Positions 3,090 to 50,251 of a stretch of DNA of 64,000 bases are shown piece by piece (the stretch's first letter is position 1; every line of letters begins with the position of its first letter). The stretch comes from Candidatus Krumholzibacteriota bacterium (GTDB lineage Bacteria > Krumholzibacteriota > Krumholzibacteriia > JAJRXK01). A program made the translations under genes and the position numbers. Where the stretch lies: NCBI GenBank assembly GCA_963764625.1, contig CAVXTH010000006.1:138029-202028 (forward strand). Direction: 5' to 3'. A model generated the notes under the pieces. That model worked only from the letters and a program-made list of their open reading frames with translations, searched no databases and was not told where the DNA came from.

Positions 3090-3647
3090 ATGCTGGACGA
3101 GATTTACAACGATCTACAAGAACGCATGGACAAGACCCTGGAGGCGCTGCGGCGCGAGCTGGGTCATCTGCGCACAGGGAAGGCAACCCCCAAACTCCTC
3201 GACGGCGTGGTGGTGGAGGCCTACGGATCGAAGATGCCGCTCAACCAGCTCGCCTCCATCGGCGCGCCCGAGCCGCGACTCTTGACGATCCAACCCTTCG
3301 ACCACTCGCAACTGGGCGCCATCGAGAAGGCTCTGTTGGCGAGCGACCTCGGCATTACTCCCAACAACGACGGCAGCCTCATTCGTCTGCCCATTCCCGC
3401 GCTCAACGAGGAGCGCCGTCGCGAGTACGTCAAGCTGGCCAAGAAGTACAGCGAGGAGGCCAAAGTGGCGCTGCGCAACGTGCGGCGCGACGGCAACGAC
3501 AAGATCAAGAAGGCCGAGGGCGACAGCGATCTCACCAAGGACGAAGCCCACCGCGGCCAAGATCAAGTCCAAAAGCTCACCGACGAGTACGTGGCCAAAG
3601 TCGACGAAATCCTCGCCGCCAAAGAGACGGAGATCATGGAGGTTTGA
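3090..3647 (+). CDS. frr: Ribosome recycling factor
   Basis: 185-aa ORF MLDEIYNDLQERMDKTLEAL...RNVRRDGNDKIKK..., typical RRF. Confidence 0.9.
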   Translation: MLDEIYNDLQERMDKTLEALRRELGHLRTGKATPKLLDGVVVEAYGSKMPLNQLASIGAPEPRLLTIQPFDHSQLGAIEKALLASDLGITPNNDGSLIRLPIPALNEERRREYVKLAKKYSEEAKVALRNVRRDGNDKIKKAEGDSDLTKDEAHRGQDQVQKLTDEYVAKVDEILAAKETEIMEV

Positions 3648-3656
3648 GGGGAGTCA

Positions 3657-4015
3657 ATGGCTGACGAACCGGACCGCGCTCGCGTATCTCGGGCTGAATC
3701 TCCTCTTCGCGACGATCCACGCCGGCCTCGACCTCCAACTCAGTGCTCTATTTCTCGGTTCAGACCTCGTCGACCATCGGCTACGGGCACATCAGTCCAC
3801 ATGGCGACATCGCGAAGCTGGTCGATACCATGGAGTCATTCTTCGGGTTGCTCGGAGTGGCCCTCATGACCGGGATCGTCTTCGCGCGCTTTTCCCGCCC
3901 GGAGCCCACAGGAGTTCCCCTATTGCTTTCCGGTGCGCTAAGCGCCAATCTCCGCTATAGTTGGGACGAAGAGGGGATGGTCGAGAGGGCGGTTCTTCCG
4001 CCGCTCCGGCTGTGA
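3657..4015 (+). pseudogene. Miniature KirBac-like (inward-rectifier type) K+ channel pore module: TM1, pore helix with TIGYG filter, and TM2 ending FARFSRP. It is spread over three reading frames and has no Kir cytoplasmic domain.
   Basis: ATG at 3657 follows a GAGGGGAG RBS (frame 0). Frame +1 over ~3660-3740 encodes ...TALAYLGLNLLFATIHAGLDLQLSA (TM1-like). Frame +2 over 3743-4015 encodes LYFSVQTSSTIGYGHISPHGDIAKLVDTMESFFGLLGVALMTGIVFARFSRP..., which matches the KirBac pore helix, selectivity filter, inner helix and the conserved ARF-RP motif that follows TM2. The ORF stops at 4015; the ~200-aa Kir C-terminal domain is absent. Confidence 0.5.
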
Positions 4016-4083
4016 GCCCCACGCCCGGCGCCATGTCCCGAACCGGAGGAAACCAGGGAGGGCAGGACCCTCCGTCGAACCCG

Positions 4084-4833
4084 ATGGCCACGAGACTGCA
4101 GACGAGCTCCCACACTTCCGAGACCGTCGACCGAAGCAAGCTTCCGCGTCACATCGCCGTGATCATGGACGGCAACGGTCGTTGGGCGCGCAAACGTGCC
4201 ATGCCGCGCATTGCGGGACACCGCGCCGGCCGGCACGCGGTGCGTGAGGTCGTCCGTAGCTGTGCCGAACTGGGGATCGAAGCCCTCACCCTCTACACCT
4301 TCTCGGTGGAAAACTGGAAGCGGCCCAGCTACGAGGTGAAGGCCCTGTGGTCCTTCCTCGAGGAAGTTCTCCGTAGCGAATTCCTCGAGCTCGCCGACAA
4401 CAACATTCGCCTCATCGCCACCGGTGATCTCAGGCCCATTCCCGAACCGGCGCGGCGCGCGCTGGAACGAGCCCAGGTCGATCTGCGCGAGAACACCGGC
4501 ATGATCTTGAACCTGGCGGTGAGCTACGGCTCACGCAGCGAGATCGTCGAAGCGGCGCGCGGCTTCGCGCGCGATGTGGCCGAGGGAAAGTGTCGCCCCG
4601 AGGAGCTCGACGAAAAACTCTTCGGCGAGTACCTCTATGCCCCCGAGCTTCCCGATCCCGATCTCCTCATTCGCACCAGCGGAGAGATGAGGCTGAGCAA
4701 CTTCTTGCTGTGGCAACTCGCGTACGCCGAACTCTACGTCACCGAAACGCTCTGGCCCGATTTCGGCCGCGCCGAACTCATGGCGGCCATCGCGGCGTAC
4801 CAGAGACGGGACCGGCGTTTTGGCGCAGTCTGA
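4084..4833 (+). CDS. uppS: Undecaprenyl diphosphate synthase
   Basis: ...LPRHIAVIMDGNGRWA... and ...RTSGEMRLSNFLLWQLAYAELYV... are cis-prenyltransferase signatures. The start could also be the ATG at 4033. Confidence 0.85.
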   Translation: MATRLQTSSHTSETVDRSKLPRHIAVIMDGNGRWARKRAMPRIAGHRAGRHAVREVVRSCAELGIEALTLYTFSVENWKRPSYEVKALWSFLEEVLRSEFLELADNNIRLIATGDLRPIPEPARRALERAQVDLRENTGMILNLAVSYGSRSEIVEAARGFARDVAEGKCRPEELDEKLFGEYLYAPELPDPDLLIRTSGEMRLSNFLLWQLAYAELYVTETLWPDFGRAELMAAIAAYQRRDRRFGAV

Positions 4834-22409: not shown

Positions 22410-22463
22410 GGGCTCCCAACCTCTTTTTCACTCTCGAGCCTCACCGCTCGGAGAGGATACGCA

Positions 22464-24119
22464 ATGAACCCAGGGGATTCAACGACTCACGCGCGTTCGC
22501 CGATGCCCATGCTTCTGATTTTGGCCCTGTGCCTGCTCGTGAGCGCCTGCGCGAGTCAAGTGACGAACGGCCCGGCCTGGCCCGATGAAGGTTCTTCCGA
22601 AGAGTCCTCCGCAACCGAACTCAAGACCGCGGAGAAAGCTTCCATTCTTCAGCCGCGGCCGCCCGCGGAATACTGGTGGAACCAGCCCAAGGACAAACTG
22701 CCCCACTTGGTGGGAGGGAAGTACCTGGATCATCGGGACAGCCTGGGGTTCTCCGAATTTCGCAAACTCGGGGAAGAGGACCAACGTGATCGACGGCGGA
22801 GCGCCCGCAAGCACCTGGAGAAGGGGCTGGCCCTGGGCGCGAATCGAGTGGCGCTGAACGACTACGCGACCGGAGCGGGTCTGTGTCCCTATTATCCCGA
22901 AATCTGGCTCCACTACGCGGAAGCCGAGATTCAAATGGGGAACTACCACACGAGTCGCTACTTGCTGCAGGGAGTGGAACGGAGCCTTCGCTTTGCCTCT
23001 GGAAGCAGCGAGCAAGAACAGGTCGCGTCGGACTTCTACTATCTCGACGCTCTCGCTTCCTACAATCTGGGTGAGAAGGACAGGGCCCTGGAATCGGCCG
23101 AAAACTGTCTGGCCCTGCGCGGGGGAAACCTGGACGCAAGGCTCCTGCGAGCGAGGTGCCTCACCGATTTGAATCGTTTCGACGAGGCACGAATAGAACT
23201 GAGCCGATTCGAGTTCGGGTCTCCCCATTACGCTCAGGCTCAGGCGGTGCGTGGCGTGTTGGAGATGGACGCGGGCGATCTAAAGAGCGCCGAGCGGGCC
23301 TTCTCCGAGGCCTACGAGTACGGACTTCGCAGCGGCATCCTCGAGAACGATCGGGGCCGGCTGGCCCTGATGCAGAACCGGCTGGACGATGCGGTCGATC
23401 ACTTCGAACGGGCGGTGCGGTTGATGCCCGAGCTCATGGAGGCGCGCAACAACCTGGCGGTGGCTCTGAGGCGCGCGGGGGAAAGCGCTCGAGCCGAACA
23501 GGTCTTGAATCGGGCCATCGCGCTGAACCCGAACTACGCCGCCACCCATTTCAATATGGCGGAGCTGCTCCGCTCTCGCCTGGAAGATCTCAAAGGAGAC
23601 GAGCTGAGACGAACCGCGCGCGAGGCCCGCGAGCACTACGACGCAGCGCTCGCCCTGCACTATCGCCCCAAGGTGATTCTCGAACGCCGAGCCTGGATTT
23701 CTCTTCGTCTCGGAGATCTGGCCGCAGCAGAAAACGACCTGCTCAAACTCACCGGTACTGCGAATCCCGACGGGCGCGTCCTGTTTCTTCTCGCCCATAC
23801 CAAACAGGAACAGAATGATCTCCGCGTCGCGCAGAAACTCTACGAGATGGCGATTCAGAGGGGATATGATGGAGCCGACGTTCACAGCGATCTAGGGGAG
23901 GTGCTGTTGCGACGCGAGGATCTCGAGCGAGCGCGAAGCGAGCTGGAGAAGGCCATCTCTTTGGACGGAAGTCTCGTCGCTACGCGACTCAATCTCTGTC
24001 AGACGCTCGCCGATCTGGGCGATCGTGAGGCGGCCGAGAAGGTCTTGAAAGAAGCGGAAGCGCTGGCCCCCGACGATCCCGCGGTGAGAGCGCAAAGGAA
24101 GGCTTTGGATTCGCGATGA
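22464..24119 (+). CDS. TPR-repeat lipoprotein
   Basis: MNPGDSTTHARSPMPMLLILALCLLVSAC lipobox, then repeated TPR-like helical units (...AEAEIQMGNY..., ...NPNYAATHFNMAELL...). Confidence 0.65.
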   Translation: MNPGDSTTHARSPMPMLLILALCLLVSACASQVTNGPAWPDEGSSEESSATELKTAEKASILQPRPPAEYWWNQPKDKLPHLVGGKYLDHRDSLGFSEFRKLGEEDQRDRRRSARKHLEKGLALGANRVALNDYATGAGLCPYYPEIWLHYAEAEIQMGNYHTSRYLLQGVERSLRFASGSSEQEQVASDFYYLDALASYNLGEKDRALESAENCLALRGGNLDARLLRARCLTDLNRFDEARIELSRFEFGSPHYAQAQAVRGVLEMDAGDLKSAERAFSEAYEYGLRSGILENDRGRLALMQNRLDDAVDHFERAVRLMPELMEARNNLAVALRRAGESARAEQVLNRAIALNPNYAATHFNMAELLRSRLEDLKGDELRRTAREAREHYDAALALHYRPKVILERRAWISLRLGDLAAAENDLLKLTGTANPDGRVLFLLAHTKQEQNDLRVAQKLYEMAIQRGYDGADVHSDLGEVLLRREDLERARSELEKAISLDGSLVATRLNLCQTLADLGDREAAEKVLKEAEALAPDDPAVRAQRKALDSR

Positions 24120-40689: not shown

Positions 40690-40840
40690 GCTTCCATACT
40701 CCCACGAAGTTTCGGTCCCTTCCCTCACGGAGCAAATGCTTGCCAGCGCATCTTCAAAATGAAACAATGCCCGTCGATTTCCAGACGACGGGGATTTCAG
40801 TTCTACGGTGGAGTCGGGGAGCGACTCAGAGAGGGTATCC

Positions 40841-42350
40841 ATGCATTTCAGCGTGAAAAAAGAGAGTCTCGAGGATGCGCGCGCGGAGGTTTTGATCGTT
40901 GGGGTGAATTCGGGCGGAAAGCGCTTACGAGGAGCGGTAGCCGGGCTCGATCGGCGCACTAGCGGAGCGTTGAGCAAGGCGATGGAGGTGAGCGGTTTCA
41001 GCGGGGAACTCAAGGAAGTCGCGTTCGCACCCGCGCCCCGCACTGGTGCCAAGAAGATTCTCCTCTTGGGCCTGGGAGAGATGCAGGACCTCGACGTCGC
41101 CGCCTTGAAGGACGCAATGGGAAGCGCCGCTTCCGCCTGCCAGAAGCAGGGCATCAAGTCTGCGGCGGTGCTGGTCCCCACCTCGCGCTCCACTCACGTG
41201 CGGGATGCGGCGGAAGCGACCTGTCGCGGGCTCCTCTTGGCGAGCTACGATCCCGGTCTCTACAAGACCGAGGAGAAGGAGCGCAAGAAAGCGGCGCTCA
41301 GTCGCGTGACTCTTCTTTGCGATGCCAAGAACGCGGATACCGAACTGAAAGCGGGAGCCGCGCGCGGAAACGCGATGGCGGCCGGAGTGTTGTTTACCCG
41401 CGATCTCGTGAACCGTCCCTCTAACGAACTCACTCCGCGTATGCTCGCGAAGGAGGCCAAGAGCCTGGCTCGCTCTCCGCTGGTAAAGTGTAGAGTCTTC
41501 GGGCCGGCGGAATGCGAACGCAAGGGCATGGGAGGACTGCTCGGAGTCGGACAGGGCAGCGCGGAACCAGTGCAGTTCATCTCCCTCGAGTACAAACCGG
41601 CACGCCTGCCGAAGAAAGCCCCCAAAATCGCCATCGTGGGCAAGGGAATCACTTTCGACACCGGTGGAATCAGCCTCAAACCTTCTGCCAACATGGACCA
41701 GATGAAGTTCGACATGGGAGGCGCGGGAGCCGTTCTCGGTGCGTTCAAGATCCTCTCGCTCTTGAAGCCCGCAGTGCACGTTTTGGGTTACGTGGCAGCC
41801 GCGGAGAACATGCCGGGGGGAAAGGCGATCAAGCCGGGCGATCTGCTCCGTATGATGAGCGGCCTCACGGTCGAGGTAAACAACACCGATGCAGAGGGCC
41901 GTCTGGTGCTGGCGGATGCTCTTCACTACGCGAAACTGCAAAAGCCCGATTTCATCGTGGATGCCGCCACCCTGACCGGCGCATGCATGGTAGCGTTGGG
42001 TGAGTACGCCTGCGGACTCATGAGCGAGGACGACGAACTGGTGCGCCTCATCGAAGAGGCCTCCAAGCTCGCTGGTGACCCGGTTTGGCGGCTGCCTCTG
42101 AGCGAATTGCATCGCACCAAGATGAAGGGTCACGTCGCCGACCTGAAGAACACCGGCTCCAGAGATGGCGGCGCCTCGACGGCGGCCGGTTTCTTGAGTT
42201 TCTTCGCTACGAGGAGCGCGCTGGGCGCATTTGGATATCGCAGGGATGGTCTGGGCGGAAGAGAATCGCCCTACCGAGCCCAAAGGCGCCACCGGCTTTG
42301 GAGCCTGTCTCTTTTACTGTATCGCCGAGGCCGCGGCGAAGAGCACCTAG
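40841..42350 (+). CDS. pepA: Leucyl aminopeptidase (M17), frame-disrupted ~42195-42215
   Basis: ...NTDAEGRLVLADALHYA... is the M17 signature. After ...AAGFLSFFAT the ORF frame becomes garbage and runs on to 42379. The expected C-terminus WAHLDIAGMVWAEENRPTEPKGATGFGA...* is in the +1 frame, ending at TAG 42348-42350. Confidence 0.7.
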
Positions 42351-48155: not shown

Positions 48156-48406
48156 ATGCGAAGAAGGCCCAGACCAAAGCGCCACGCTACGCCGAAGCCA
48201 TGGAGGAGTTGGAGACCATTCTCGCGCAACTCGAGGAGGAATCGGTGGATGTGGACGAGCTCACGGCCAAGGTGAAACGGGCCAGCGAACTGATCCAGTT
48301 CTGCCGAGACCGGCTGAGCAATACGCGACTGGAGATCGAGCAGGTCGTGGCCGAACTGCAGGCGGTCGAGAAAGAAGAGAACTCGGAGGACGAAGAGCGA
48401 TCGTGA
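48152..48406 (+). CDS. xseB: Exodeoxyribonuclease VII small subunit
   Basis: 84 aa. ...YAEAMEELETILAQLEEESVDVDELTAKVKRASELIQFCRDRLS... is typical of XseB. Confidence 0.8.
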   Translation: MNAKKAQTKAPRYAEAMEELETILAQLEEESVDVDELTAKVKRASELIQFCRDRLSNTRLEIEQVVAELQAVEKEENSEDEERS

Positions 48407-50251
48407 ATTCCGCGAGTCGGAGTGAACCCCAGCTCAGCGGCGAGGAACTGGACCGGAAGTGGCGTGACGAAGTCTACGTCGCCGACGGAAGCCCCCAACT
48501 CACGCTTCGGTCCACGCTGACCGGAGTCGTCTTGGGCTGTCTGCTCGCCTTGAGCAACCTCTACGCGGGCCTGAAGACCGGCTGGTCGTTCAGCATCGCG
48601 ATCACTGCCTGCATTCTCTCCTTTTCGTTCTGGCGTCTGTTGATGGTGGCCAAGCCCGGTTCGCGTTCCCCGGAAATCCTCGAAGACAACTGCATGCAGT
48701 CGACCGCTTCCGCGGCGGGCTACACCATCGTGGCTCTGCTCGTCTCGGCGATTCCCGCCTACCTCATGGTCACCGGAGTGAGGATTCGCGCGGGATGGCT
48801 CATGCTCTGGGTGTTCTTCTCGGCCGCCCTGGGCCTGATGCTCTTCATTCCCTTCAAGCGCCAGCTCGTCAACGACGAGAGTCTGGTGTTTCCCAGTGGC
48901 GTCGCCGCGGCCGAGACCCTGCGTGGCCTGCACGCCAAGGACGGAGAGTCTCTGCGGCACGCCCGGGGGCTCTTTTCCGGCATGGGCCTGGGCGCTCTGG
49001 GATCGTGGCTCGGCACGAACAACGCGTTCAGCTTGGTGGCGTCTCCCCAGGATTCCCGAAACCGTATTCGCGCCCGGTTCGATCTCGGGGGTCTCGCTTT
49101 CGCCGCTGACGGTCGGCCTGGATCTGGCCGGCGTGTCTTTGGCGGGTGGAGCCCTCATCGGGATCCGAATTTCCCTGTGGATGCTCGCCGGGTCGACGGC
49201 GATCTACCTGGTGATTGCTCCCTGGCTGGTGTCGAATCACTACATCGTGGGTGAGGTGGGGTACCGCACGGTGCAGAATGGCTTCGCGCTCTGGCTCGGT
49301 GCCTCGCTCATGGTCGGCGCGTCGTTGGCGGATCTGTTCTTTCAACGTCACACGATGGGGCGCGCGTTTTCGGGTCTGTGGAGGATTTTGCGCGGGGGCT
49401 CGAAGTCCGCTAGACACGATCCCATGGCCGAAATCGAAGTACCCGACTGGTGGTCTCTGGTGGGGCTTGGGTTCTGCGCGGTCGGCCTGGCCGTGACCGG
49501 CATCCTGGCCTTCGCCATTTCCCCTTTGTCCCTGCTCGCCGCCCTCATCTTGAGCCTTCTCTTCGTGGTCGTGGCCACGCGCGCGGTAGGGGAAACCGAT
49601 CTCATCCCGGTGGGTCAACTCGGAAAGCTGGCGCAGCTCACCTTCGGGGGACTGGCGCCGCGCCGGCTCAGCACCAATCTGATGGCCACCGGGATGAGCG
49701 TGAGCTCCGCCGCCTCTGCGGCCGATCTCGCGACCAACCTCAAGTGCGGACGCATCCTGGGAGGGAATCCACGGAAGCAGTTTCAGGCGCAGCTCTTGGG
49801 CACTCTGGCAGGGGCCCTGGTAGTGGTTCCCGCCTTCTACGTGCTCGTACCCGACGTCAGCGTTCTCGGCACGCCCCAGCTTCCCGCTCCCGCCGCGGCC
49901 GCCTGGCGCGCGATCGCGGAGTTGACGTCCAGCGGTTTGAGCGCGCTCGAACCCGCGGCTCGTCTCGGTTTGGTGGTGGGACTCATGCTGGGCTTGATCC
50001 TCTCGACGATCGCGCAGCTGTGGCCCGAGAGAAAGTGGACGCCCAGTGCCTTCGGTTTGGGCTTGGGAATGGTGATTCCCTTCAGCCAATCCACTGCCTT
50101 CGTGGTCGGCGCCCTGCTCGCCATCCTCGTGCGACGCCTGAGCCCCTCGCGCGCTGAGGCCTACACCGTTCCCGTCGCCAGCGGAATCATCGCGGGGGAA
50201 AGCCTGCTCGGCGTTCTCTTCGGAACTCTGGCCGCTCTGGGCCTCATGTAG
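48403..50251 (+). CDS. OPT-family oligopeptide transporter, split into two overlapping ORFs by a frame break at a CCCC run (~49043-49050)
   Basis: The N-terminal part (48403-~49045) and C-terminal part (~49050-50251) are both polytopic and OPT-like (...ETLRG... and ...IVGEVGY... motifs). Their ORFs overlap over 48896-49254. Combined length ~615 aa, as expected for the OPT superfamily. Confidence 0.6.

What the first reader, a model, noticed from the sequence alone, without database searches (positions are those of the whole stretch)
3657..4015. Miniature Kir-type K+ channel module wedged into the conserved frr-uppS junction, spread over three reading frames
The pyrH-frr-uppS-cdsA string is otherwise tightly packed, yet a 360-bp insert between frr and uppS carries a recognisable K+ channel core. 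Frame +1 holds a TM1-like helix (TALAYLGLNLLFATIHAGLDLQLSA). Frame +2 holds the pore helix with a canonical TIGYG filter and a TM2 ending FARFSRP; the ARF-RP motif directly after TM2 is Kir/KirBac-specific. The ~200-aa Kir cytoplasmic domain is absent; the ORF stops at 4015, 70 nt before uppS. One reading is a decayed KirBac remnant. The other is that two homopolymer indels (a CC run near 3667-3669 and the TTT at 3749-3751) hide an intact ~120-aa minimal channel (M-A-D-E + TM1 + P + TM2), comparable in size to the viral Kcv channel, expressed from the GAGGGGAG RBS and the ATG at 3657. A stand-alone Kir pore with no cytoplasmic domain would be unusual. The rest of this contig does show homopolymer frame breaks, so the intact reading cannot be dismissed.
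Basis: partly seen in the sequence, partly recalled or inferred. Interest (0 to 1): 0.72.

Follow-up and report, generated by a model that had tools for sequence, protein, structure and literature searches.

The report
Decayed Kir potassium-channel gene relic
The short potassium-channel-like stretch between frr and uppS is the deletion-riddled leftover of a normal 321-residue bacterial Kir channel gene that still sits intact at the same spot in a sister lineage, so it is an ordinary dead gene fragment and not a new miniature channel.

Summary
Window 3657-3904 holds Kir-type channel sequence in three reading frames: a start codon plus 7 codons, most of TM1, then half the pore helix, the TIGYG filter, TM2 and FARFSRP. 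The best solved-structure matches are KirBac1.1 and KirBac3.1 (E about 1e-12).

The intact mini-channel reading is not supported. A metagenome contig from the closest Frr relative (L087, Frr 86.5% identical) carries a complete 321-aa Kir gene (IRK plus IRK_C domains) directly downstream of frr. About 20 intact 318-330-aa orthologues exist in Krumholzibacteria.

Against these orthologues, both frame changes in the window fall on large losses:
- net -185 nt (residues about 8-67: N-terminus, slide helix, start of TM1)
- net -50 nt (residues 88-108: end of TM1, turret, N-terminal half of the pore helix)

Both losses are 3n+2 in length. The whole C-terminal domain is also gone. The tail of the 90-aa ORF runs into a 54-nt uppS-upstream element shared with the relatives closest by UppS (L082/L083).

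Two other genes in the window do carry frame breaks, but those breaks lose no sequence. Verdict: a recently decayed Kir pseudogene. Low interest.

The parts
3090..3647 (+). frr (ribosome recycling factor), intact. It is the upstream anchor of the locus.
   Evidence: 185-aa ORF. It is 86.5% identical to Frr of L087, 76-77% to L084 and L085, and 66% to L001.
3646..3653 (+). GAGGGGAG ribosome-binding site of the former Kir gene. It overlaps the frr stop codon.
   Evidence: Orthologues carry the same motif at the same distance from their ATG: GGAGGGGAATGA-ATG in L112 and L081, GGGAGAGGTTT-ATG in L087.
3657..3677 (+). Retained Kir start codon and codons 1-7 (MADEPDR), in the third frame.
   Evidence: It matches orthologue N-termini such as MANEPPR, MADEQQR and MADERQH. 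ATGGCTGACGAACCGGACCGCG aligns with ATGGCCAACGAACCGCCGCGCG of L111, and 10 of the first 12 nt match L087.
3669..3678 (+). Junction of deletion 1. The net loss is 185 nt (3n+2), which removes residues about 8-67: the cytoplasmic N-terminus, the slide helix and the first third of TM1. The frame shifts by +1.
   Evidence: L087 nt 674-868 (195 nt) correspond to 10 nt here. N-terminal and TM1 homology overlap over 3670-3677, which suggests breakpoints in a short repeat (inference).
3673..3732 (+). TM1 relic, orthologue residues 68-87 (TALAYLGLNLLFATIHAGLD), in the frame of 3649.
   Evidence: 80% nt identity to L087 866-921. tblastn against P0007 gives E=1.65e-4. Six of the 7 clade-invariant residues are kept; Y83H is new.
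3733..3745 (+). Junction of deletion 2. The net loss is 50 nt (3n+2), which removes residues 88-108: the end of TM1, the extracellular turret and the N-terminal half of the pore helix. The frame shifts by +1.
   Evidence: L087 nt 922-986 (65 nt) correspond to 15 nt here. L087 and L112 both show a 50-nt shortfall between the two aligned blocks; for L081 and L111 the block ends give 49 and 50 nt. This stretch has no base run longer than 2.
3746..3904 (+). C-terminal half of the pore helix, the TIGYG selectivity filter (3773-3787), TM2 and the post-TM2 FARFSRP motif (3881-3901). These are orthologue residues 109-161, in the frame of 3650.
   Evidence: 83.6% nt identity to L087 987-1151, the same as frr at 83.2%. 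Family profile E=1.7e-30. KirBac1.1 and KirBac3.1 are the best PDB hits. 29 of 32 clade-invariant residues are kept; N132K and V135D are new.
3905..3911 (+). Left edge of deletion 3. Kir homology stops here. The remaining ~160 residues (IRK_C cytoplasmic domain) and whatever lay downstream are absent.
   Evidence: Every hit of the 90-aa ORF in 1.84 billion representatives ends at its residue 53-60, apart from a few weak extensions. tblastn and the family profile find no C-terminal domain anywhere in the window.
3912..3965 (+). 54-nt conserved non-coding element upstream of uppS. It is not Kir-derived and lies inside the tail of the 90-aa ORF.
   Evidence: 96% identical to L082 825-878 and L083 265-318, just upstream of uppS, where the neighbouring gene is a minus-strand Ser/Thr kinase. 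The adjacent uppS coding DNA is only 85% identical. It is single-copy in the window, has no Rfam match and no sigma-70-type promoter match.
3743..4015 (+). The 90-aa ORF (P0001), present as a predicted protein in NCBI/ENA-derived collections. It is a mechanical ORF across the relic and the uppS upstream region.
   Evidence: It is a singleton cluster. Only residues 2-55 have homologues. No frame shows a clear coding-type GC3 signal from about 3880 to 4000. By eye, no Shine-Dalgarno-like sequence precedes GTG 3743.
4084..4833 (+). uppS (undecaprenyl-diphosphate synthase), intact. It is the downstream anchor of the locus.
   Evidence: 249 aa, 96% identical to P0156 (L082/L083). The start ATGGCCACGAGACTGCA is conserved.

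Best explanation
Window 3657-3911 is a non-functional relic (pseudogene fragment) of a full-length, 321-residue KirBac-type inward-rectifier K+ channel gene. In the common ancestor of this organism and its closest known Frr relative, that gene lay immediately downstream of frr.

In this lineage the gene was cut down by at least three deletions:
1. About 185 nt, removing residues about 8-67.
2. About 50 nt, removing residues 88-108.
3. One large deletion, removing the whole C-terminal cytoplasmic domain and everything up to a conserved 54-nt element upstream of uppS.

The first two deletions each shift the frame by +1. That is why the start codon, TM1 and the pore-TM2 block sit in three different frames.

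Nothing in the fragment is expected to form a channel. The 90-aa ORF in public annotation is a by-product of the relic running into uppS upstream DNA. The decay is recent: the surviving 74 codons still keep 35 of 39 clade-invariant residues.

Shown directly: homology, synteny, the deletion map, and the absence of the missing parts from the window. Inferred: the order and mechanism of the deletions (probably slippage between short repeats), the size of the third deletion, and the lack of expression.
For: **Family.** Pfam Ion_trans_2 and IRK both hit. KirBac1.1 and KirBac3.1 are the best solved-structure matches. A profile of 49 full-length relatives gives E=1.7e-30, covering profile positions 98-159 only.

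**Intact orthologue at the same locus.**
- L087 carries frr (37-594) followed by Kir (662-1627, 321 aa, with IRK and IRK_C domains).
- The same frr-Kir order is seen on L108/L109/L110 and on the P0277 contig.
- Window Frr is closest to L087 Frr (86.5%). It is 76-77% identical to L084 and L085, whose frr-uppS gaps are 18 and 8 nt.
- The relic is as similar to L087 Kir (83.6% and 80.4% nt) as frr is to L087 frr (83.2%).

**Deletion map.** The start codon, the RBS and 7 N-terminal codons are conserved with the orthologues.

**All close homologues are full length.** About 20 relatives at 69-100% identity to L087 Kir are 318-330 aa. The relic's ORF has no relative at E<1e-30 except itself.

**The ORF tail is not Kir.** 3912-3965 is homologous to uppS-upstream DNA of L082 and L083.

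**Contrast with the other two broken genes.**
- pepA and OPT keep all of their sequence across the break. Pfam model positions run 2-273 then 276-308 for pepA, and 1-178 then 194-619 for OPT.
- The Kir relic has lost about 75% of its gene.

**Signs of relaxed constraint.** There are three interior replacements never seen in 20 orthologues: Y83H, N132K and V135D. Two of them fall at invariant positions.
Against: - The surviving pieces are well preserved, and they happen to be the start codon, TM1, the filter and TM2. That pattern looks superficially designed.
- Branch-polarised substitutions on the window branch are 8 non-synonymous to 10 synonymous. This is not a clearly neutral pattern, so decay must be recent, or some constraint persists.
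- The contig does contain indel-type frame breaks in two other genes, so single-base errors cannot be excluded from the sequence alone.
- No single contig spans frr to uppS in an intact-Kir relative. The content and size of the third deletion are therefore inferred.
Confidence: 0.93

Rival explanations
1. Intact minimal channel. The two frame changes are sequencing or assembly indel errors. The real genome would then encode a ~118-aa protein (MADE-TM1-P-TM2) produced by in-frame reductive deletions, working as a stand-alone Kir pore of Kcv-like size.
For: - The start codon and RBS are retained and orthologous.
- The filter, TM2 and most of TM1 are well conserved.
- Two other genes in the window carry frame breaks, one at a CCCC run.
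- Related assemblies use 'contig_N' names, and one relative (P0007/L081) also has an out-of-frame-looking tail. This hints at error-prone long-read assemblies (inference).
Against: - Each frame change coincides with a large loss of 3n+2 length: 185 nt and 50 nt. A plain 185-nt or 50-nt deletion explains each with one event. This rival needs a deletion plus an error, twice, within about 80 nt.
- At the observed density of about 2 breaks in 55-60 kb, two errors within such a stretch have a chance of roughly 1e-5 (my estimate).
- Junction 2 (3733-3745) has no homopolymer. The TTT run cannot be the break, because TAT-TTC-TCG is already in the orthologous frame.
- The restored product would lack the turret, the N-terminal half of the pore helix, part of TM1 and the slide helix. 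It would also carry N132K and V135D.
- Its last 35 residues would be read from a conserved non-coding element.
- No similar small protein exists among 1.84 billion representatives.
Confidence: 0.02
2. The annotated 90-aa ORF (GTG 3743 to 4015) is a real small membrane protein, consisting of half a pore helix, the filter and one TM helix, with a new role.
For: - It is an open frame of 90 codons that gene callers predicted.
- Its first 55 residues are conserved relative to Kir genes.
Against: - By eye, no Shine-Dalgarno-like sequence precedes GTG 3743.
- It has no outer helix, so it cannot form a K+-channel fold.
- Residues 56-90 have no homologue, and no frame shows a clear coding-type GC3 signal from about 3880 to 4000.
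- Residues 57-75 are read from the 54-nt uppS-upstream element.
- It is a singleton cluster.
Confidence: 0.02
3. The piece was never a whole gene here. A Kir fragment was inserted between frr and uppS by illegitimate recombination or transfer.
For: - More distant relatives have a tight frr-uppS junction.
- The junction is variable in this phylum. L001 has a 2.9-kb insert of unrelated genes, and L082 has a kinase gene next to uppS.
Against: - The intact orthologue occupies the same position, directly after frr, in the closest Frr relative and in a second lineage.
- Its nucleotide divergence equals that of frr.
- The RBS and start codon are retained at the frr end.
- Several internal deletions are easier to explain by in-situ decay than by import of a fragment.
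Confidence: 0.02

Closest known systems
Prokaryotic inward-rectifier K+ channels: KirBac1.1 and KirBac3.1 (Pfam IRK PF01007 plus IRK_C PF17655)
   Same: The pore helix, T-I-G-Y-G filter, TM2 and the post-TM2 F-A-R-F-x-R-P motif are shared. These are the best solved-structure matches at E about 1e-12, with 49% identity over 53 residues to KirBac1.1. The relic derives from a 321-aa gene of this architecture, as seen intact in L087.
   Different: The N-terminus and slide helix are missing, as are part of TM1, the turret, half the pore helix and the whole cytoplasmic domain. The remaining pieces lie in three frames. It is a dead derivative and not a working member.
The 318-330-aa Kir clade of Candidatus Krumholzibacteria (P0276-P0296; frr-linked in L087, L108-L110 and the P0277 contig)
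   Same: Orthologous. Over the 70 surviving core residues identity is about 79-83%. The relic occupies the same locus downstream of frr, with the same RBS and the same N-terminal MA(D/N)E(P/R/Q) start.
   Different: All clade members listed are full length. The window copy has lost about 75% of the gene through deletions.
Miniature viral K+ channels: chlorovirus Kcv, 94 aa, and ATCV-1 Kcv, 82 aa (named from my own knowledge, not tested here)
   Same: A hypothetical frame-restored product would have a similar size and a TM1-P-TM2 layout.
   Different: As I recall them, Kcv proteins are single intact ORFs with a turret and a complete pore helix. Here there is no single ORF, the turret and half the pore helix are deleted, and nothing links the relic to Kcv.
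Bacterial pseudogene decay by deletional bias (general phenomenon; named from my own knowledge)
   Same: There are several deletions of arbitrary phase in a gene that is intact in a sister lineage, few point changes, and leftover ORFs picked up by automatic annotation.
   Different: Nothing notable. This is a textbook-looking case.

Membership tests
Kir / KirBac channel (functional member) | Pore helix, T-x-G-Y-G filter and inner helix with significant similarity to IRK/Ion_trans_2 | tested here: met
   Ion_trans_2 E=1.3e-9 and IRK E=7.5e-5, both above gathering score. KirBac1.1 and KirBac3.1 at E about 1e-12. TIGYG lies at 3773-3787.
Kir / KirBac channel (functional member) | Post-TM2 F-A-R-F-x-R-P motif typical of Kir | tested here: met
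   FARFSRP lies at 3881-3901. These residues are invariant in 20 clade orthologues.
Kir / KirBac channel (functional member) | One continuous ORF containing N-terminus/slide helix, complete TM1, turret and complete pore helix | tested here: not met
   The pieces lie in three frames. Residues about 8-67 and 88-108 of the orthologue are absent.
Kir / KirBac channel (functional member) | C-terminal immunoglobulin-like cytoplasmic domain (IRK_C, PF17655) | tested here: not met
   No IRK_C hit. tblastn and the family profile find no trace of it anywhere in the window. It is present in L087.
Kir / KirBac channel (evolutionary derivative / pseudogene) | Orthology to an intact Kir gene, by synteny and by divergence equal to the flanking gene | tested here: met
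   The frr-Kir order is seen in L087, L108-L110 and the P0277 contig. Nucleotide identity is 83.6% for the relic and 83.2% for frr. RBS and start are conserved.
Minimal stand-alone K+ channel (Kcv-like) | Single intact ORF of about 80-125 aa with TM1, turret, pore helix, filter and TM2 | tested here: not met
   No such ORF exists. Restoring it needs two assumed base errors, and the result would still lack the turret and half the pore helix.
Minimal stand-alone K+ channel (Kcv-like) | Conserved relatives of similar size | tested here: not met
   Of 1182 hits among 1.84 billion representatives, only the ORF itself scores below 1e-30. Most of the 150 best listed are 230-350 aa, and several of the short ones inspected end in out-of-frame-looking tails.
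Minimal stand-alone K+ channel (Kcv-like) | K+ conductance of the product | not testable with these tools
   This needs expression plus complementation or bilayer recording.

The most novel reading that the evidence does not exclude
The two frame junctions are base-calling errors of a long-read assembly. The organism then really encodes a ~118-aa Kir-derived pore (MADE-TM1-P-TM2), made by three natural deletions that trimmed a KirBac down to its membrane core. That would be a naturally miniaturised Kir lacking both the slide helix and the cytoplasmic gating domain.
Probability: 0.02. Interest if true: 0.7.

Novelty: already known. Interest (0 to 1): 0.12.

Why it matters
It matters little for channel biology. 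There are three small practical points.

1. The 90-aa 'Ion_trans_2' protein in public collections (P0001) is an annotation artefact on a pseudogene. It should not be counted as a minimal K+ channel.
2. The locus is a clean, datable snapshot of how a bacterial gene is removed. The losses are of 185 nt, 50 nt and an unknown larger size, with few point changes.
3. The normally tight frr-uppS junction is a variable insertion site in Krumholzibacteria. It carries a Kir gene in one sub-clade, saccharopine-dehydrogenase-like genes in another, and a kinase gene next to uppS in a third.

If the 2% reading were true, it would show that a Kir pore can work without its cytoplasmic domain.

Tried and rejected
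- **Exact look-up of the 90-aa ORF** returned no contig on record.
- **Genome scan with Frr.**
  - The window's own genome is not in the species-representative genome set.
  - The nearest relatives are Krumholzibacteriota at 66-75% Frr identity.
  - None of the 80 loci has Kir at the junction.
- **Possible C-terminal vestiges.**
  - I briefly read 'SANLRYS' (3941-3961) and 'RGRFFRR' (another frame, about 3985-4003) as remains of the Kir C-terminal domain.
  - Rejected for 'SANLRYS': 3912-3965 is homologous to uppS-upstream DNA of L082/L083, where no Kir is present.
  - Rejected for both: the family profile finds nothing there.
- **Turret-like similarity in frame A.**
  - tblastn extended the frame-A TM1 hit into a turret-like match (DLQLSALFLGSDLVDHRLRA against the P0007 turret).
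  - Rejected as coincidence. The same bases encode the invariant YFSVQTSSTIGYG in the other frame, and four orthologue DNAs show a 49-50-nt gap there.
- **Selection test.**
  - Branch-polarised counts are 8N/10S on the window branch and 3N/7S on the L087 branch.
  - The numbers are too small to decide. They only indicate that decay is recent.
- **RNA and promoter scans** of the intergenic region and the whole window (Rfam, tRNA, sigma-70 promoter) found nothing.
- **Cluster listing** gave no names or accessions.
- **Literature search** found nothing specific on truncated KirBac proteins.
- **Structure prediction** was not run. A monomer model also could not separate the hypotheses.

Full report
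**1. What is in the sequence.**

frr occupies 3090-3647. uppS starts at ATG 4084, a start conserved with its closest relatives. The 436-nt gap between them is unusual. In 54 of 58 other genomes whose locus held both genes, the frr-uppS gap lies between -42 and +201 nt.

The gap reads as follows:
- ATG 3657, preceded by GAGGGGAG, opens a frame that turns into Arg/Pro-rich nonsense after 'MADEPDR'.
- The frame of 3649 reads WLTNRTALAYLGLNLLFATIHAGLD.
- The frame of 3650 reads LYFSVQTSSTIGYGH...GIVFARFSRP and stays open to the TGA at 4013-4015.

**2. It is Kir-type and not a chance match.**

- The 90-aa ORF hits Pfam Ion_trans_2 (E=1.3e-9) and IRK (E=7.5e-5), both above their gathering scores.
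- The best solved structures are KirBac1.1 and KirBac3.1 at E about 1e-12.
- A profile built from 49 full-length relatives hits only this locus in a six-frame translation of the whole window (E=1.7e-30). It covers profile positions 98-159.
- The TM1 piece in the other frame is collinear. It reaches E=1.65e-4 against the relative P0007, with 14 of 20 identities.
- Third-position GC is high in the TM1 frame over about 3640-3729 and in the pore frame over about 3700-3909. No frame stands out from about 3880 to 4000.
- No Kir cytoplasmic domain and no second Kir gene exist anywhere in the 64 kb.

**3. What relatives have at this locus.**

The organism belongs to Candidatus Krumholzibacteriota, judging by Frr and UppS hits.

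- **L087.**
  - This metagenome contig was found with the channel fragment.
  - It carries frr at 37-594, followed 67 nt later by a complete 321-aa gene at 662-1627.
  - That gene has IRK, Ion_trans_2 and IRK_C domains.
- **Same order elsewhere.** frr followed by Kir recurs on L108, L109 and L110, and on the contig of P0277, an 89%-identical orthologue.
- **Closeness.**
  - L087 has the Frr closest to the window's, at 86.5% identity.
  - L084 and L085 are at 76-77%, with frr and uppS 18 and 8 nt apart and no Kir.
- **Equal divergence.** The relic is 83.6% and 80.4% identical in DNA to the L087 gene. frr is 83.2% identical.
- **The clade.**
  - About 20 orthologues at 69-100% identity to L087 Kir are all 318-330 aa.
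  - In more distant members (L111, L112, L081) the gene lies elsewhere in the genome.

The simplest history is that a full-length Kir gene sat downstream of frr in the common ancestor of the window organism and L087, and that it has decayed in the window lineage.

**4. Anatomy of the decay.**

- **Start region.**
  - The RBS, the ATG and the first seven codons are retained. They match orthologue starts such as MANEPPR, MADEQQR and MADERQH.
  - At the DNA level, ATGGCTGACGAACCGGACCGCG aligns with ATGGCCAACGAACCGCCGCGCG of L111.
- **Deletion 1.**
  - L087 nt 674-868 (195 nt) correspond to 10 nt in the window, a net loss of 185 nt.
  - This removes residues about 8-67: the N-terminus, the slide helix and the first third of TM1.
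- **TM1 relic.** Codons 68-87 survive at 3673-3732.
- **Deletion 2.**
  - L087 nt 922-986 (65 nt) correspond to 15 nt in the window, a net loss of 50 nt.
  - This removes residues 88-108: the end of TM1, the turret and the N-terminal half of the pore helix.
  - L087 and L112 both show a 50-nt shortfall between the aligned blocks. For L081 and L111 the block ends give 49 and 50 nt.
- **Pore-TM2 relic.** Codons 109-161 survive at 3746-3904.
- **Deletion 3.**
  - Homology to Kir stops at about 3910.
  - From 3912 to 3965 the window is 96% identical to a stretch just upstream of uppS in L082 and L083, the relatives with the closest UppS (96% amino-acid identity).
  - In those relatives the neighbouring gene is a minus-strand Ser/Thr kinase and no Kir is present on the short contigs.
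  - The C-terminal 35 residues of the 90-aa ORF are therefore read from uppS-upstream DNA.

Both internal losses have length 3n+2. Each shifts the frame by +1, which is exactly the observed three-frame layout.

**5. Could it still be an intact mini-channel masked by errors?**

- pepA (M17) switches frame near 42205.
- An OPT transporter gene switches frame at a CCCC run near 49035.

In both genes the Pfam model continues across the break with almost no loss of model positions. For pepA it runs 2-273 then 276-308. For OPT it runs 1-178 then 194-619. Twenty other ORFs tested have full-length domain matches.

The Kir case differs in kind:
- Each frame change sits on a large deletion. A plain 185-nt or 50-nt deletion explains each with a single event.
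- The mini-channel reading needs an in-frame deletion plus a base error, twice, within about 80 nt. At the observed density of about 2 breaks per 55-60 kb, I estimate the chance at roughly 1e-5.
- The proposed TTT site cannot be the second break. TAT-TTC-TCG already matches the orthologue in the pore frame, and the real junction (3733-3745) has no homopolymer.
- A restored product would lack the turret, half the pore helix and part of TM1. It would also carry N132K and V135D near the start of TM2.
- No related protein of that size exists among 1.84 billion representatives. Only the ORF itself scores below 1e-30, and matches to the ORF mostly end at its residues 53-60.

I put this reading at about 2%.

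**6. Age of the relic.**

Of 39 positions invariant in 20 orthologues, the relic keeps 35. Two of the four changes lie at deletion edges. Y83H and N132K are interior changes at invariant positions, and V135D is a further residue never seen in the clade.

Polarising substitutions with three outgroups gives 8 non-synonymous to 10 synonymous on the window branch, and 3 to 7 on the L087 branch. These numbers are too small to test. They suggest the gene was under selection for most of the branch and died recently.

**7. Comparison with known things, and verdict.**

The relic derives from a KirBac-type channel. It fails the defining features of a working member:
- it is not a single ORF;
- it has no slide helix;
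- it lacks a complete TM1, the turret and a complete pore helix;
- it has no IRK_C domain.

It resembles Kcv-type mini-channels only in hypothetical size. It is an ordinary bacterial pseudogene fragment, and the public 90-aa protein prediction on it is an artefact.

Interest is low. The residual value lies in annotation hygiene and in a neat example of stepwise gene loss at a variable frr-uppS junction. The same junction holds a 2.9-kb unrelated insert in L001.

Not run: read mapping and expression tests, as set out under next steps.

Noticed in passing
window 3912-3965: A 54-nt stretch (core CTATTGCTTTCCGGTGCGCTAAGCGCCAATCTCCGCTATAGTTGGG) is 96% identical to the uppS-upstream region of L082 and L083. 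The adjacent uppS coding DNA is only 85% identical. It is single-copy, has no Rfam match and no sigma-70 consensus match, and contains a small GCGC-TAA-GCGC hairpin. It may be a promoter or leader for the uppS-cdsA operon.
   Followed up: partly
window 3966-4083: About 97 extra nt lie between the 54-nt element and the uppS ATG. L082 and L083 have only about 20 nt there. The extra stretch includes an inverted repeat GGAGGG-CAGGA-CCCTCC just upstream of the start codon. Its origin is unknown; no fetched locus matches it convincingly (one marginal hit, E=0.079).
   Followed up: partly
window 40808-42345: The leucyl aminopeptidase gene (pepA, M17) is frame-shifted near 42200-42215 (ACGAGGAGCGCGC, not an obvious homopolymer). 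Pfam positions 2-273 lie in one frame and 276-308 ('WAHLDIAG...PKGATGFG') in the next. This is either a sequencing indel or a very recent pseudogene.
   Followed up: partly
window 48403-50251: The OPT oligopeptide transporter gene is split by a frameshift at a CCCC run near 49033-49040. Pfam OPT positions 1-178 lie in one frame and 194-619 in another.
   Followed up: partly
L001 4556-7468: In another Krumholzibacteriota MAG (JAJRXK010000090) the frr-uppS junction holds a 2.9-kb insert with two minus-strand genes. From reading the sequences (no profile search run), they look like saccharopine-dehydrogenase and alanine-dehydrogenase-type genes. The junction is an insertion-prone site in this phylum.
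   Followed up: no
L082 2-706 and L111 6977-9664: A minus-strand Ser/Thr kinase gene lies next to uppS in L082. It is 51% identical over its N-terminal 235 aa to an 895-aa kinase with Tricorn/PD40-type repeats that lies convergent to, and immediately after, the intact Kir gene in L111. L108 also has a large minus-strand repeat-protein gene downstream of Kir. This may be a conserved Kir-kinase neighbourhood.
   Followed up: partly
L081 6001-6942 (P0007): This Kir orthologue of 313 aa has a C-terminal third that reads like out-of-frame GC-rich sequence (…GSGAHARRFHTPPARTREG…). That suggests a frameshift in that assembly too. Several short 'representatives' (P0082, P0139, P0028, P0131) likewise end in junk just after FARFSRP.
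   Followed up: no
window 22427-23280: About 850 nt hold no ORF with coding-type GC3, no tRNA and no Rfam match. This stretch was not examined further.
   Followed up: no
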